Shown piece after piece: positions 3,001-9,000 of a stretch of DNA of 64,000 bases. Location: NCBI GenBank assembly GCA_000002445.1, contig CP000068.1, positions 192,001-256,000 of the forward strand, given 5' to 3'. Position numbers: made by a program. Every line of letters begins with the position of its first letter. Within the stretch, counting starts at the first letter, position 1. The DNA comes from Trypanosoma brucei (lineage: Eukaryota).

Positions 3001-6000
3001 CCACAACACTCAACACCTCAACTTACTAAACTCGATAAGGGGATTGCGAGGTGTCATCGCTCATTGAATGGGGGAACTGGTCGACATGCAGAGGTAGCTT
3101 CCAGGCCGCATGACAAATGAAGGGTGTTTCGTGCCGTTCTGAAAGCACAAGGCTCCGGTCCGTTGCAACTGGTGCGTCAAGAAAGTGTACGCGTCGGGGC
3201 CATTCAACCTCCTGGCGGCTATATGAGACGGTGCTCCAAAACCGACTACCGGCAGGAGAAACATTTCGTTGATCCCTACGCGCCCCGGGCAACAGATTAC
3301 TTATCCTCGCCCTTAAGGCATTCGACGTGAGTTTATGGAATGGAATCGTACCTGCTGCACGGGAGAGTTATCAATAATTTCCATACAGAAACACCCTAAG
3401 AAGGCGGAGCGTTTGGATGTCCACGAGGCGGTGAAAGCGATGAGTTGCGCGCGCAAAGCCATCGAGAACATCGTTGGTAATGGAATTGGGGACTTTATGG
3501 GGGAGGGGCCCACACTAGAACCGGGATTTCGGCCGGGTCGCCCCACGCTAAGGCTGCTTCAGCGCTTCCAGATGGCCCTTGGTCACCCGTCGCCGTCGCA
3601 CATGGGAGCGGCATTCATAGTTTACGCGAATGCCTTGGATGTCACACGGAAAGCGGCTGATGGTTTTATTTTACAGCAGAATGAAAGGAACAAAAGTTGG
3701 CAAAACACTGTTAAACAGCCGGACGCTTGCAAGAGGCATAAAGCAACTGCATCAGAGCGCACTGTGCCCCTCAGCCTCGGACTCGCAGAGCCAACTCTTG
3801 GAAGCATTTCCGCTATCACATGACGGCTTTTTTGCGGATAATTTGGCGCTATCGGCGCGATACACGAAGAGGGACCCCGAAGACCGCACACCGCAGGGCA
3901 GCCCCGGCGTTGTGATACAATGGCAGCAAAAGTGACTTATGTACGCCCGCACGCCGGTGACGAAATGCAAACTGCTCAGTTACATTGAACACTTATCGTC
4001 AATGTAACATCACGGTGGGGCTCGGGCTGGGGTTGGAAAAGTACCGAAGATGTTTTGGGACGGCGCGCTGCGCAAACACAGCGAATAGCAAGCCGCAGGG
4101 CGCTGAAAATAGAAACCGTTTGGGCGACGGCGTATCACCCAGATGAGGCGTTGCGTGCTTTACACTTCCGGTTTTTACAATTACGTGACACGTGCAGAGC
4201 TGATGTGTGGCATTAGTGCGTCTCAGAAGGTATTCGAGAGGCGACCGGAGCGGAGCGGCACAAAGACAGCCAAACCATCGAGGACGTATCGCACGCGCAC
4301 TATACAACCCCACCCGTAACTTCGTGCCGGGACGGAAGCCGCTGATCCAAACTTCTCCAACGCCTTCCTTTTCAATGCAACAGGGCCTTCCGCGGGAAGA
4401 TAAGGCCCGTGTGCGCAAACTGTCCCGGAGAGGCTTAGATCGGCGAATGGACATTCTTAAACCAGAGGTCCGGCCAGACCCTCAGCCCAAGTGAGGACGA
4501 AAAAACGATACATCAGGTCAACAAAAGCGGCGGCGCACTTGCACTGGCGGTGGGCCTGCGAAAGGCACCGAATCCCTTCTTAATTCACAAGGCGGTGCTG
4601 CCCAGCCTCTCGATATACCCGCTTTCGTTCTCCACCATGCCGGAGGCGAGCGCAGTTACCATTACTGACCCGTCCCTGCACAAATTGCGGTGGTCAGCTG
4701 TGACAATACCGGGCAGGAACAATTGCATTAGACCACAGTTTGTACTCCCCTGCTGCGGCGTGGCATTGAACGAAGGCGCGCGGCGAAATTGCGAAGAATG
4801 TCGCTGGCATGTCACAGTTGCCCGACCGGGGGTTTGCAGACACCGCGGCCTATTCGAAGCGTTTGTTGTGATCTGGGGAAATATACTCGGGGGCCCACCG
4901 GGACACATTTCACGACCAAATGCAAAGAATGGATGCGCGGGCCGACAGCGTTGGCTGGCACTGCTGGTGGTCGCCGCACAAAATCAACTCATGGGTGGCC
5001 CGTTCCACCGGTGGCAGGAACCGTAATTTCCACTGGCGACGCTTGCACCCCAACCAATCCCAACGACCACGACCTCGGTGTTAACAACCTTCTTTCACGC
5101 TGAGGGACAAAAAAGGTGTACTAATTGCGGTGCGATATGGCAAACACCGAACGAGTGCAGTGACGAATATGGCGGCGGATCTTCTGGCGTAGGCGCGTTC
5201 TTTTGAAAAATTAAATGCGGTGATGCGTCGCGTCCAGCGTATGATCCATCAGAACCCATGCAACCGCGGCCCGTACTGGCGGCTTCGCGAGTATCAACAA
5301 CAGCAAGCCTCAACACTAAACATTCAAAGGCGTCACGACGGCACCACCTTCGCAGCCACATTTGTGATACAAAGCAATCGGTTCGCGAGCTAAACAGGTC
5401 TTGAATTGAAAAGCAGGATGCAAGATGTAAAGCAATAACTACAAGACAGCGCATCTACCGCAAGAAAACATTGTTTTACCCAACAAGCTACCATGCCCCG
5501 GAGGCAACATAGCCAACACCAAACGACACCGCCATCCTGCAGAAGTTCTGCTTCTCGGGTCGCCTTGAATAACTTCAACTCACCACAAAACGACTCCAGA
5601 GCTTGACGCCACTCTTAACTACGACTATTGAAAAACAGGGTAAACAGGAACCAAAATCATACAGCACCCCCATTAACAAGAGAATAGACAGAAAAAACTA
5701 AGCAACAAACAAAAAAGTGGAAAAGTCGGCATGTCAGCAAGTCTAACATCTAGCATCGCCTCCTCACCCTCCAACAAACACACACCCAAAAAACAAAACT
5801 AGCACAAAATTTTTTTCACATCAGCAGAAAAAAAACCAAAAATACAAAATAAAGAAAAAAACAACATTTATCAGCGGTGGAGAGAACGGTACAACTAGGG
5901 AAAAAATTAAGAATTGAACAAAACACAATAAACAAACACAAAACATGCTGAAACCAGCGACAAATGGGTATGATTGTGCAACACTGTTTTTGCATAATCA

Positions 6001-9000
6001 TACGCATGAATGCGTATTTGACGTGAAAATACGCAATAATGCACAATTTGTGAACAAACATGCAACATTGTGCAGGTTGTGCAAGAATGCGTGTTTTACA
6101 CCAAAAACACCTTACATGTTGCATTGCAACACTGTTTTTGCACAATCATACGCATGAATGCGTATTTGACGTGAAAATACGCAATAATGCACAATTTGTG
6201 AACAAACATGCAACATTGTGCAGGTTGTGCAAGAATGCGTGTTTTACACCAAAAACACCTTACATGTTGCATTGCAACACTGTTTTTGCACAATCATACG
6301 CATGAATGCGTATTTGACGTGAAAATACGCAATAATGCACAATTTGTGAACAAACATGCAACATTGTGCAGGTTGTGCAAGAATGCGTGTTTTACACCAA
6401 AAACACCTTACATGTTGCATTGCAACACTGTTTTTGCACAATCATACGCATGAATGCGTATTTGACGTGAAAATACGCAATAATGCACAATTTGTGAACA
6501 AACATGCAACATTGTGCAGGTTGTGCAAGAATGCGTGTTTTACACCAAAAACACCTTACATGTTGCATTGCAACACTGTTTTTGCACAATCATACGCATG
6601 AATGCGTATTTGACGTGAAAATACGCAATAATGCACAATTTGTGAACAAACATGCAACATTGTGCAGGTTGTGCAAGAATGCGTGTTTTACACCAAAAAC
6701 ACCTTACATGTTGCATTGCAACACTGTTTTTGCACAATCATACGCATGAATGCGTATTTGACGTGAAAATACGCAATAATGCACAATTTGTGAACAAACA
6801 TGCAACATTGTGCAGGTTGTGCAAGAATGCGTGTTTTACACCAAAAACACCTTACATGTTGCATTGTAACACTGTTTTTGCACAATCATACGCATGAATG
6901 CGTATTTGACGTGAAAATACGCAATAATGCACAATTTGTGAACAAACATGCAACATTGTGCAGGTTGTGCAAGAATGCGTGTTTTACACCAAAAACACCT
7001 TACATGTTGCATTGCAACACTGTTTTTGCACAATCATACGCATGAATGCGTATTTGACGTGAAAATACGCAATAATGCACAATTTGTGAACAAACATGCA
7101 ACATTGTGCAGGTTGTGCAAGAATGCGTGTTTTACACCAAAAACACCTTACATGTTGCATTGCAACACTGTTTTTGCACAATCATACGCATGAATGCGTA
7201 TTTGACGTGAAAATACGCAATAATGCACAATTTGTGAACAAACATGCAACATTGTGCAGGTTGTGCAAGAATGCGTGTTTTACACCAAAAACACCTTACA
7301 TGTTGCATTGCAACACTGTTTTTGCACAATCATACGCATGAATGCGTATTTGACGTGAAAATACGCAATAATGCACAATTTGTGAACAAACATGCAACAT
7401 TGTGCAGGTTGTGCAAGAATGCGTGTTTTACACCAAAAACACCTTACATGTTGCATTGTAACACTGTTTTTGCACAATCATACGCATGAATGCGTATTTG
7501 ACGTGAAAATACGCAATAATGCACAATTTGTGAACAAACATGCAACATTGTGCAGGTTGTGCAAGAATGCGTGTTTTACACCAAAAACACCTTACATGTT
7601 GCATTGTAACACTGTTTTTGCACAATCATACGCATGAATGCGTATTTGACGTGAAAATACGCAATAATGCACAATTTGTGAACAAACATGCAACATTGTG
7701 CAGGTTGTGCAAGAATGCGTGTTTTACACCAAAAACACCTTACATGTTGCATTGTAACACTGTTTTTGCACAATCATACGCATGAATGCGTATTTGACGT
7801 GAAAATACGCAATAGTTTGCATTTTATGCTTTAATGTTTATGTTGCTCATGCTTTTTTTCAATTTGCATATTTTGCGTGAGAAGGGTTGTTGTAATTAGA
7901 CTTGTTTTCACCTGATCGATGTATTAATGGATATGAAATGGGAAAGGTGTCATGATGTGCTGCCGTGTAAGTGTGAAAATTAATTTTTTTAGTTTTTTTG
8001 TTTGCCGTGTTCTAAAGCAGTGTGTTGTTGTTTCTTTTTGATGCTGTCTTTATTTTTTTGTAGCGATTTTAGCGAAGCGGATGGAAATGTTGAGTTTGTG
8101 ACATTCTTTTTTTTTTTTAGTGTGTCCTGTTTTCGCGAGAGCAAATGTTTAGGAATACCGAATTTGTTGTATTGTTTTCTGTTTTGCTGTTAATGGCGAG
8201 GGGTCTTTCATGGAAAGTGTTTTCGAGACCCACAAGGGTTTATATTGCTTTACAAAGTGTACCGGAATTGCTTGGTGCCACGAAAGGGGGACGTGATTGT
8301 AAGCGAAATAATGTGCCACGTAGTTGCACGGAATAACGTGATGGTAGGAAAAATCTGCGAAGAGGGGGGTCATACGAGGAGCTGCGTACGGAAGGCGATT
8401 GGGACCTGTCGCAACAATTTCACTACTTAAAGGCCAGTCTTTTTATGTTGCCATTTACTGCCGGCTTGGGCGCCGTGAGAGCGGGGGGGGCAGGGGACGT
8501 TTAGCGGCAGATGAATGGTTCGAAAAGGCATAATTTGCTCAATTTCCATCAAAGCAGCGAAAAGTGAAACATATTCGATAAAGCCAGTCTGCGCCACTCA
8601 CCAATGACAATGCCAATTTTTGTTTTTAATGTGCCGTTTCGTCGATCACATGACCGGGCACCGCCACTTTATGGAGATCCTGTTGGGATATATATATAAA
8701 TATATTGTGCGTCCTTTCGAGCTGTTGGCGACATTTTCTCATGCTCTAGGTATTAAGTTCCTGTGAGTGACGCTGCATACCTGCTTGCAGCTCGTTGTTC
8801 TTTTATTAAGCGTTAGCGCTGAAACGGGCCTCGCACAGTGTTGTTATTGTGGTTTGAGGCGCCAACGAATAACTGCAGAGCCGTTGTCTTTCGCAATCCT
8901 GCATGAAGAAAGCCTCCCGCGAACAAAACGCAGCTGTTCCAAAGAGGCCGTATGATGCGGTTTTACCTCATGTACAACCTGACGGAACGTTGGGAACGCC

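What the first reader, a model, noticed from the sequence alone, without database searches (positions are those of the whole stretch)
5972..7814. Near-perfect 148-bp tandem array (about 12.4 copies) next to a degenerate retroelement: possible centromere-associated repeat
The unit is extremely homogeneous, with only a handful of SNPs across 1.84 kb, which implies recent or ongoing homogenisation. It is nucleosome-core sized (148 bp) and internally structured, with an 8-bp-stem inverted repeat (atacgcat/atgcgtat) and reiterated tgcacaat/attgtgca half-sites that could act as protein-binding sites. It sits in an ~11-kb gene-free region downstream of a directional gene cluster, flanked by an ingi/DIRE-like remnant. 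In T. brucei, centromeres are known to consist of ~147-bp repeat arrays (CIR147-type on several chromosomes) flanked by degenerate retroelements at transcription-unit boundaries. Assemblies usually collapse such arrays, so the true array may be far larger. It is not the 177-bp minichromosome satellite, nor a 50-bp or 70-bp VSG-associated repeat. I cannot confirm identity to CIR147 from memory.
Basis: partly seen in the sequence, partly recalled or inferred. Interest (0 to 1): 0.8.

Follow-up and report, generated by a model that had tools for sequence, protein, structure and literature searches.

The report
Known Trypanosoma brucei chromosome 5 centromere repeat

Summary
Positions 5977-7814 hold 12.4 head-to-tail copies of a 148-bp unit, with 5 substitutions in 1,838 bp and 62.5% AT.

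Three window proteins are letter-for-letter T. b. brucei TREU927 proteins: two ISG65-75-family proteins and the trans-sialidase Tb927.5.640. The array therefore lies between Tb927.5.600 and Tb927.5.610, where Obado et al. 2007 list the chromosome 5 centromeric array (148-bp unit, 62% AT, about 2 kb).

Every unit carries the exact 15-mer used to target CIR147 with a TALE protein. A published 50-mer CIR147 probe aligns at 46/50 plus one indel. The left flank holds a degenerate ingi-type reverse-transcriptase remnant.

Published work on this locus shows topoisomerase-II cleavage, KKT2 enrichment, Dicer-dependent siRNAs and a true array size of 50 and 75 kb on the two homologues. Sister assemblies agree that the array is unresolved: one has a gap, one a contig end, and one at least 6.4 kb.

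One minor extra turned up. The retroelement flank is 97.7% identical to the flank of a second CIR147 array in T. b. equiperdum (chromosome 4 by locus tag), but there the array runs in the opposite orientation.

The parts
5977..7814 (+). CIR147-family centromeric satellite of chromosome 5: 12 full 148-bp units plus a 62-nt partial unit. It is the assembled stub of a much longer array.
   Evidence: TRF. Unit-by-unit comparison. Exact TALE target in every unit. CEN probe alignment. It is 98-99% identical to the orthologous arrays in T. b. gambiense and T. b. equiperdum, and 92-93% identical to a second CIR147 array in T. b. equiperdum.
5964..5981 (-). An 18-nt relic of a unit in the opposite orientation (ATGGGTATGATTGTGCAA, 17/18 to the reverse-complemented unit). 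It overlaps the first forward unit by TGCAA. Together with 5990-6003 it forms a 14-nt inverted repeat (13/14) across an 8-nt spacer.
   Evidence: Read directly from the sequence and from junction comparisons. The same junction is present in T. b. gambiense. In the T. b. equiperdum record CM010675.1 the same flank runs on into reverse-orientation units.
2468..5963 (+). Degenerate ingi/DIRE-type retroelement remnant. Its A-rich 3' end abuts the array. It is a repeated flank shared with a second CIR147 centromere.
   Evidence: Window 2468-5981 is 97.7% identical over 3,546 nt to L001 9134-12675. The reading frames are riddled with stops. The A-rich tract at about 5680-5960 can be read directly.
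3374..3637 (+). Reverse-transcriptase-like stretch of the remnant, with the motifs GFRPGRPTL and GAAFIVYANAL.
   Evidence: An exhaustive HMMER search finds P0019 at E = 6.8e-4. Pairwise BLASTP gives 39% identity over 90 aa, E = 2e-13. P0019 carries Pfam RVT_1 (E = 2.2e-11) and is named 'Tbingi protein' of T. theileri. Pfam does not score the window fragment itself.
7815..11428 (.). Non-coding right flank between the array and the first gene. The array/flank junction (…ACGCAATA|GTTTGCATTTTATG…) is conserved.
   Evidence: There are no long ORFs and no Pfam hits. The junction is identical in T. b. gambiense, T. b. equiperdum IVM-t1 and T. equiperdum OVI.
11429..12715 (-). First gene to the right of the array: an ISG65-75-family surface protein (annotated 'acidic phosphatase, putative'), transcribed towards the array. 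By position it is Tb927.5.610.
   Evidence: Pfam PF11727, E = 1e-96. Exact match to TREU927 XP_844735.1. Obado 2007 names Tb927.5.610 as the flanking ORF.
17175..18380 (-). Third ISG-family gene, 401 aa, equal to Tb927.5.630. It anchors the window on chromosome 5.
   Evidence: Exact match to TREU927 XP_844737.1. Tb927.5.630 is described as an ISG65-75 protein of 401 aa with a transmembrane segment at 349-372 (PMC4619645). The hydrophobic segment here is at 353-371.
26970..29420 (+). Trans-sialidase gene (Tb927.5.640, TbSA B), the first gene of the plus-strand cluster. It is a second chromosomal anchor.
   Evidence: Pfam BNR_3 and TS_C. Exact match to TREU927 XP_844738.1. Tb927.5.640 is TbSA B (PMC3795030).

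Best explanation
The array is the CIR147 centromeric satellite of Trypanosoma brucei brucei TREU927 chromosome 5, as it appears in the Sanger-era reference assembly. That assembly shows only 12.4 units, but the real array is tens of kilobases long.

What is shown here: its identity, its chromosomal position, its retroelement flank, its fixed junctions and its unresolved length.

What is taken from published experiments on this locus:
- The array is where the constitutive kinetoplastid kinetochore proteins KKT2 and KKT3 accumulate, so it is the platform for assembling the CENP-A-less KKT kinetochore.
- Topoisomerase II acts there, consistent with decatenation of sister chromatids.
- Both strands are transcribed by RNA polymerase II into long RNAs. 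Dicer-like 2 cuts these into siRNAs that are bound by Argonaute.
- Centromeres are the earliest-firing replication origins in the chromosome cores.

What is inferred: the near-identity of the units reflects ongoing concerted evolution by unequal exchange or gene conversion. Each subspecies has fixed its own variants across its array. How the site is chosen, by sequence or epigenetically, is not known. The evidence here argues against a strict sequence motif.
For: Identity:
- The TALE target 15-mer occurs exactly 13 times against 0 expected.
- The published 50-mer CIR147 probe aligns at 46/50 plus 1 indel.
- Unit length of 148 bp and 62.5% AT equal the chromosome 5 row of Obado 2007 Table 1.

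Position:
- Three proteins match TREU927 proteins exactly, on a 1,608,198-bp record.
- The gene identifiers Tb927.5.630 and Tb927.5.640 match by family, length and transmembrane position.
- Measured from the first lenient TRF motif (5918) to 7814, the span is 1,897 bp. That is the length of the published chromosome 5 coordinates 197919-199815.

Flank: an ingi-type reverse-transcriptase remnant.

Length:
- 50 and 75 kb by restriction mapping.
- A 100-N gap inside the T. b. gambiense array.
- At least 6.4 kb (43.5 units), running off the fetched locus, in T. b. equiperdum IVM-t1.
- A contig end 59 bp into the array in T. equiperdum OVI.
- Nanopore-assembled Lister 427 centromeres are 30-105 kb.

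Function:
- Topo-II cleavage sites were mapped on chromosomes 1-8.
- KKT2 peaks lie on the AT-rich arrays of chromosomes 1, 2 and 4-8.
- KKT2 and the 147R-TALE are both enriched at centromeres 4 and 5.
- CIR147 siRNAs depend on DCL2, and both strands are transcribed.
- Centromeres are early-acting origins.

Concerted evolution: there are subspecies-specific fixed differences, namely an extra A and G63A in TREU927 and T42G in interior gambiense units. IVM-t1 shows a block structure.
Against: Nothing contradicts the identification.

Limits:
- The full published CIR147 consensus (Obado 2007, Figure 7) is an image. I could compare only a 15-mer, a 50-mer and arrays from sister assemblies.
- No TREU927 chromosome record could be fetched, so the chromosome assignment rests on exact protein matches and the literature.
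- All functional statements come from papers, not from tests made here.
- KKT ChIP-seq reads on a satellite shared by chromosomes 4, 5 and 8 cannot be assigned to one chromosome with certainty.
Confidence: 0.95

Rival explanations
1. The repeat specifies the centromere through sequence-specific protein binding to its palindrome (ATACGCAT/ATGCGTAT) and its TGCACAAT/ATTGTGCA half-sites, or through nucleosome phasing by a 148-bp unit.
For: The motifs are real and are repeated in every unit. The unit is more self-complementary than shuffled versions (z = -3.17). The half-site TGCACAAT is kept in the other array's units.
Against: In the second CIR147 array (T. b. equiperdum, chromosome 4 by tag) the palindrome reads ATACGCATAAACACGT, so one arm is lost. 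Yet centromere 4 is a working, KKT2-bound centromere.

Centromeres 1, 2, 6 and 7 use about 30-bp repeats and centromere 3 uses a 120-bp repeat. The KKT2 central domain binds a CIR147 50-mer and unrelated DNA alike. Kinetoplastids have no CENP-A. The unit is 147 bp in sister taxa and 148 bp here, so the exact length is not held constant.
Confidence: 0.07
2. The array's main role is not kinetochore assembly. Instead it is an siRNA/heterochromatin source or a replication origin that merely lies near the centromere.
For: CIR147 is the only tandem repeat in the genome that yields siRNAs, 8.6% of small-RNA reads. Centromeres coincide with the earliest origins.
Against: KKT2 enrichment maps onto the arrays themselves on chromosomes 1, 2 and 4-8. 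Centromeric repeats of other chromosomes make no siRNAs yet still function. These roles do not exclude one another.
Confidence: 0.05
3. It is a local satellite with no role, or an assembly artefact.
For: The assembled length of 1.8 kb is indeed an artefact of repeat collapse.
Against: The same array, with the same two junctions, is present in three other independently sequenced Trypanozoon genomes. Published topo-II and KKT data are centred on it.
Confidence: 0.01

Closest known systems
CIR147 arrays of T. brucei chromosomes 4 and 8 (and the related arrays of chromosomes 9, 10 and 11)
   Same: Same satellite family: tandem units of about 147 bp, about 60% AT, more than 90% identical between chromosomes. 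Here the identity to the second array in T. b. equiperdum is 92-93%. Both arrays abut a DIRE-type remnant that is 97.7% identical.
   Different: The TREU927 chromosome 5 units are 148 bp, with one extra A in an A-run. They carry an intact 8-bp palindrome that the other array's units lack. They also run in the opposite orientation relative to the shared flank.
AT-rich ~30-bp (chromosomes 1, 2, 6, 7) and 120-bp (chromosome 3) centromeric repeats of T. brucei
   Same: Single site per chromosome, between gene clusters, next to ingi/DIRE elements, topo-II cleavage and KKT2 binding.
   Different: Different unit length and sequence. They yield no siRNAs. They are often next to rRNA genes; none was found in this window.
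177-bp repeat of T. brucei mini- and intermediate chromosomes
   Same: Tandem satellite on which KKT proteins are enriched. It is arranged with an inversion point, loosely recalling the orientation switch at the left edge here.
   Different: Different period and sequence. The 177R-TALE does not bind CIR147. It is located on small chromosomes.
Human alpha satellite and fission-yeast outer repeats
   Same: Works in a similar way: long homogenised arrays under a regional centromere. As in fission yeast, transcripts from both strands feed RNAi.
   Different: There is no CENP-A nucleosome and no CENP-B-box-type site in kinetoplastids; the kinetochore is built from KKT proteins. This is a comparison of function only, not of family membership.

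Membership tests
CIR147 centromeric satellite of T. brucei | Head-to-tail array of units of about 147 bp | tested here: met
   Period 148, 12.4 copies, 99% matches. The chromosome 5 entry in Obado 2007 is 148 bp.
CIR147 centromeric satellite of T. brucei | Sequence more than 90% identical to published CIR147 sequence | tested here: met
   The exact 15-mer from the CIR147 consensus is in all 13 units. The 50-mer CEN probe aligns at 46/50 plus 1 indel, about 90%. Identity is 92-93% to a second CIR147 array and 98-99% to orthologous arrays. The full published consensus is an image and could not be aligned.
CIR147 centromeric satellite of T. brucei | AT-rich (59-62%) | tested here: met
   62.5% AT, against 62% for chromosome 5 in Obado 2007.
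CIR147 centromeric satellite of T. brucei | Single chromosome-internal site on chromosome 4, 5 or 8, between gene clusters (chromosome 5: Tb927.5.600 to Tb927.5.610) | tested here: met
   Exact protein matches to TREU927 XP_844735.1, XP_844737.1 and XP_844738.1. The gene identifiers come from the literature. There is one site in the 64-kb window. The rest of the chromosome was not available.
CIR147 centromeric satellite of T. brucei | At least one DIRE/ingi retroelement next to the array | tested here: met
   The flank fragment is 39% identical over 90 aa to the RVT_1 part of a 'Tbingi protein'. Its frames are full of stops. Pfam alone did not detect it.
CIR147 centromeric satellite of T. brucei | True array length of tens of kb, under-represented in assemblies | tested here: inconclusive
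   Sister assemblies show a gap, a contig end and at least 6.4 kb. The TREU927 figure of 50 and 75 kb is from restriction mapping in PMC3292466, not from a test made here.
CIR147 centromeric satellite of T. brucei | KKT2/KKT3 enrichment and etoposide-induced topoisomerase-II cleavage | not testable with these tools
   Reported for chromosome 5 in the literature.
CIR147 centromeric satellite of T. brucei | Source of DCL2-dependent, AGO1-bound siRNAs from both strands | not testable with these tools
   Reported for the CIR147 family.
177-bp minichromosome satellite / 70-bp and 50-bp VSG-associated repeats | Period of 177, about 70 or 50 bp | tested here: not met
   The period is 148. The 177R-TALE does not bind CIR147 arrays.

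The most novel reading that the evidence does not exclude
The centromeres of chromosomes 4 and 5 may descend from one 'DIRE remnant plus CIR147 array' block that was copied between chromosomes. On chromosome 5 the array was then flipped by a fold-back-type inversion with its breakpoint inside the first unit.

Three observations point this way:
- The 3.5-kb flank is 97.7% identical between the two loci, right up to the array.
- Chromosome 5 keeps an 18-nt relic of a reverse-orientation unit, followed by forward units. This forms a 14-nt inverted repeat (perfect in T. b. gambiense).
- The arrays (92-93% identical) have diverged faster than their flank.

If this is real and not yet described, it would be a sequence-level record of how a kinetoplastid centromere was seeded and remodelled. 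It might also relate to the reported spatial clustering of centromeres 4 and 5.
Probability: 0.3. Interest if true: 0.3.

Novelty: already known. Interest (0 to 1): 0.1.

Why it matters
Kinetoplastid centromeres matter because these parasites build kinetochores without CENP-A. However, this particular array has been mapped, sized and profiled since 2007 by topo-II cleavage, KKT ChIP-seq, small-RNA sequencing, TALE targeting, and Micro-C and FISH.

The value of this check is practical. It also shows that a short, perfect array in this reference assembly stands for a collapsed centromere of 50-75 kb. Finally, it shows that the unit's palindrome is unlikely to be the functional element.

Tried and rejected
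- Rfam at gathering thresholds and a tRNA scan over the whole window found nothing. There is therefore no rRNA or tRNA neighbour of the kind seen at some other T. brucei centromeres.
- The sigma-70 promoter and intrinsic-terminator scan only re-detects the unit's own motifs. It has no meaning in a trypanosome.
- Pfam scans of 20 stop-free fragments from both flanks gave no reverse-transcriptase or endonuclease hit. The word-indexed homology search with the flank fragment found only its own near-identical copy. The exhaustive HMMER search was needed to reach an ingi protein. Its second hit, P0018, is a repetitive protein and a spurious match.
- Exact look-ups of window proteins on contigs failed. 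Searches used wrong minus-strand coordinates, dropping the start codon. The TREU927 record itself could not be fetched, so orthologous loci were reached through cluster members instead.
- Short-read Logan contigs carrying the flank ORF end about 450 bp before the array, so they could not test the junction in more strains.
- I did not manage to size the IVM-t1 chromosome 5 array. It runs off the 10-kb flank, and no annotated gene on its far side was reachable.
- The array as a coding or structured-RNA element was rejected. It has no long ORF apart from a repeat-generated 109-aa frame, and no Rfam match.

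
Full report
**Observation.** Tandem Repeats Finder reports a single large array in the window, at 5977-7814, with period 148, 12.4 copies, 99% matches and no indels. 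The result is the same under three parameter sets. Cut in register, it is 12 full units and a 62-nt partial unit. Only two positions vary (C19T in unit 1; C3T in units 7, 11, 12 and the partial unit), which makes 5 substitutions in 1,838 bp. The array is 62.5% AT. Both edges are abrupt.

One unit folds as single-stranded DNA better than 199 of 200 shuffled versions (z = -3.17). No other fragment of the unit occurs in the 64 kb. No ORF above 162 aa lies in 1-11428.

**Organism and chromosome.** The genes to the right of the array are typical of African trypanosomes. There are three ISG65-75-family genes on the minus strand (11429-12715, 14605-15870, 17175-18380). On the plus strand there are a trans-sialidase (26970-29420), a receptor-type adenylate cyclase and a VSG_B-domain ORF.

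Three of these proteins are exact matches to T. brucei brucei TREU927 entries XP_844735.1, XP_844737.1 and XP_844738.1, on a record of 1,608,198 bp. Tb927.5.630 is described in the literature as an ISG-related protein of 401 aa with a membrane span at 349-372. The 401-aa ORF here has its hydrophobic span at 353-371. Tb927.5.640 is the trans-sialidase TbSA B. From the consecutive accession numbers, the gene next to the array is inferred to be Tb927.5.610.

Obado et al. 2007 list the chromosome 5 centromeric array between Tb927.5.600 and Tb927.5.610, with a 148-bp unit, 62% AT and about 2.3 kb. Echeverry et al. 2012 give its database coordinates as 197919-199815, a span of 1,897 bp. Measured from the first lenient TRF motif at 5918 to 7814, the window gives exactly 1,897 bp. 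This would put the window at about 192,001-256,000 of chromosome 5. That last step is an inference.

**Identity with CIR147.** The 147R-TALE of Carloni et al. (eLife 2026) was designed against TTGACGTGAAAATAC in the CIR147 consensus. That 15-mer occurs exactly once in each of the 13 units, with none expected by chance. The 50-mer 'CEN repeat (CIR147)' probe of Marciano et al. 2021 aligns to the unit at 46/50 with a single 1-nt gap. The gap is the extra A that makes this unit 148 rather than 147 bp.

**Retroelement flank.** The left flank has stop-ridden frames and an A-rich end facing the array. Pfam does not score its fragments. An exhaustive HMMER search with the fragment 3317-3820 did reach a Trypanosoma theileri 'Tbingi protein' (E = 6.8e-4 library-wide; 39% identity over 90 aa, pairwise E = 2e-13). 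The matched part of that protein is an RVT_1 domain. The aligned motifs GFRPGRPTL and GAAFIVYANAL correspond to reverse-transcriptase motifs.

**Length.** In TREU927 the sequence database showed 1.9 kb, but long-range restriction mapping gave 50 and 75 kb on the two homologues. I fetched the orthologous loci from three other Trypanozoon assemblies:
- T. b. gambiense DAL972 is collinear on both sides and has a 100-N gap inside the array, plus 14.9 units.
- T. b. equiperdum IVM-t1 is a PacBio plus MiSeq hybrid assembly. It has at least 43.5 units (6.4 kb), running off the fetched locus.
- A T. equiperdum OVI contig stops 59 bp into the array.

Both junction sequences are conserved wherever they are present. 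Nanopore assemblies of strain Lister 427 give full-length centromeres of 30-105 kb. The 1.8 kb is therefore a collapsed stub.

**Function (from the literature, not tested here).**
- Etoposide-induced topoisomerase-II cleavage maps to these arrays on chromosomes 1-8.
- KKT2 ChIP-seq peaks lie on the AT-rich arrays of chromosomes 1, 2 and 4-8.
- KKT2 and the CIR147-directed TALE are both enriched at centromeres 4 and 5.
- CIR147 is transcribed on both strands by RNA polymerase II. It yields DCL2-dependent siRNAs amounting to 8.6% of small-RNA reads.
- Centromeres are the earliest replication origins.
- Centromeres 4 and 5 cluster in the nucleus.

The most likely mechanism is therefore that the array is the DNA platform of the CENP-A-independent KKT kinetochore of chromosome 5. 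How the site is specified remains unknown.

The second CIR147 array I recovered is in T. b. equiperdum record CM010675.1, which is chromosome 4 by its locus tag DPX39_04 and by accession order. There the palindrome reads ATACGCATAAACACGT. The KKT2 central domain binds a CIR147 probe and unrelated DNA equally. Other centromeres use 30-bp or 120-bp repeats. The unit is 147 bp in sister taxa. Kinetoplastids lack CENP-A. The palindrome, the half-sites and the nucleosome-like length are thus unlikely to be what makes the centromere.

**Homogenisation.** The chromosome 5 consensus differs between taxa by only 2-3 fixed changes. TREU927 has G63A and one extra A. In T. b. gambiense the interior units carry T42G, while both edge units keep T.

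In IVM-t1 most of the roughly 15 units next to the right junction carry the TREU927-like changes (G63A, and in part of them the extra A that makes 148 bp), always together with C19T. The interior units are the 147-bp type. Some 1-nt length differences there may be PacBio errors. This pattern is what concerted evolution in blocks would produce. It suggests that the '148-bp' type may describe only the edge of the real TREU927 array.

**Side observation.** Window 2468-5981 is 97.7% identical over 3,546 nt to the flank of the CM010675.1 array. The two sequences run together through ACAAATGGGTATGATTGTGCAA and then part. The other locus continues with reverse-orientation units, while the window and T. 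b. gambiense continue with forward units.

Positions 5964-5981 match the reverse-complemented unit at 17/18. They form a 14-nt inverted repeat with 5990-6003 (13/14 here, 14/14 in T. b. gambiense). The arrays are 92-93% identical, less than their flanks. This fits a duplicated 'DIRE plus array' block followed by inversion of the chromosome 5 array. It rests on a single assembly for the other locus, and I could not test it in more strains.

**Verdict.** The feature is already known and extensively characterised, so interest is low.

Noticed in passing
window 5964-6003; L001 12655-12700; L002 (minus strand) junction: At the left edge, an 18-nt relic of a reverse-orientation unit precedes the forward array and forms a 14-nt inverted repeat. 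The same flank in T. b. equiperdum CM010675.1 runs into a reverse-orientation array. This suggests an inversion of the chromosome 5 array.
   Followed up: partly
window 2468-5981 versus L001 9134-12675: The 3.5-kb retroelement flank is 97.7% identical between two different centromeres. The satellite arrays themselves are only 92-93% identical.
   Followed up: partly
L003 14908-21287 (T. b. equiperdum IVM-t1 chromosome 5): The array is at least 6.4 kb. TRF also reports a 440-bp period (3 units, 98%). Most of the roughly 15 units next to the right junction carry TREU927-like changes, and the interior units are the 147-bp type.
   Followed up: partly
L002 15234-17419 (T. b. gambiense chromosome 5): All interior units carry T42G, which destroys the published TALE target. 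Both edge units keep the T, so the edges escape homogenisation.
   Followed up: partly
window 12660-12919 and 18325-18584: A 260-bp duplicate, 99.2% identical, covers the 5' ends and upstream regions of two of the three ISG65-75-family genes. Their signal peptides are nearly identical.
   Followed up: no
window 60453-60917 and 61582-62046: A 465-bp duplicate, 100% identical, lies inside two adjacent ORFs (266 and 237 aa) that have no Pfam match.
   Followed up: no
window 37790-39274: A 494-aa ORF with a VSG_B domain lies in a chromosome-internal position, downstream of a receptor-type adenylate cyclase gene at 31645-35490.
   Followed up: no
window 18400-26900: An 8.5-kb stretch without long ORFs separates the minus-strand ISG genes from the plus-strand cluster, so it is a divergent strand-switch region. 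It includes a GC-rich kilobase (55% GC at 22001-23000) with no Rfam or tRNA match.
   Followed up: no
window 11429-18380: The three ISG65-75-family proteins are named 'acidic phosphatase, putative' in the public records, although their only Pfam domain is ISG65-75.
   Followed up: no
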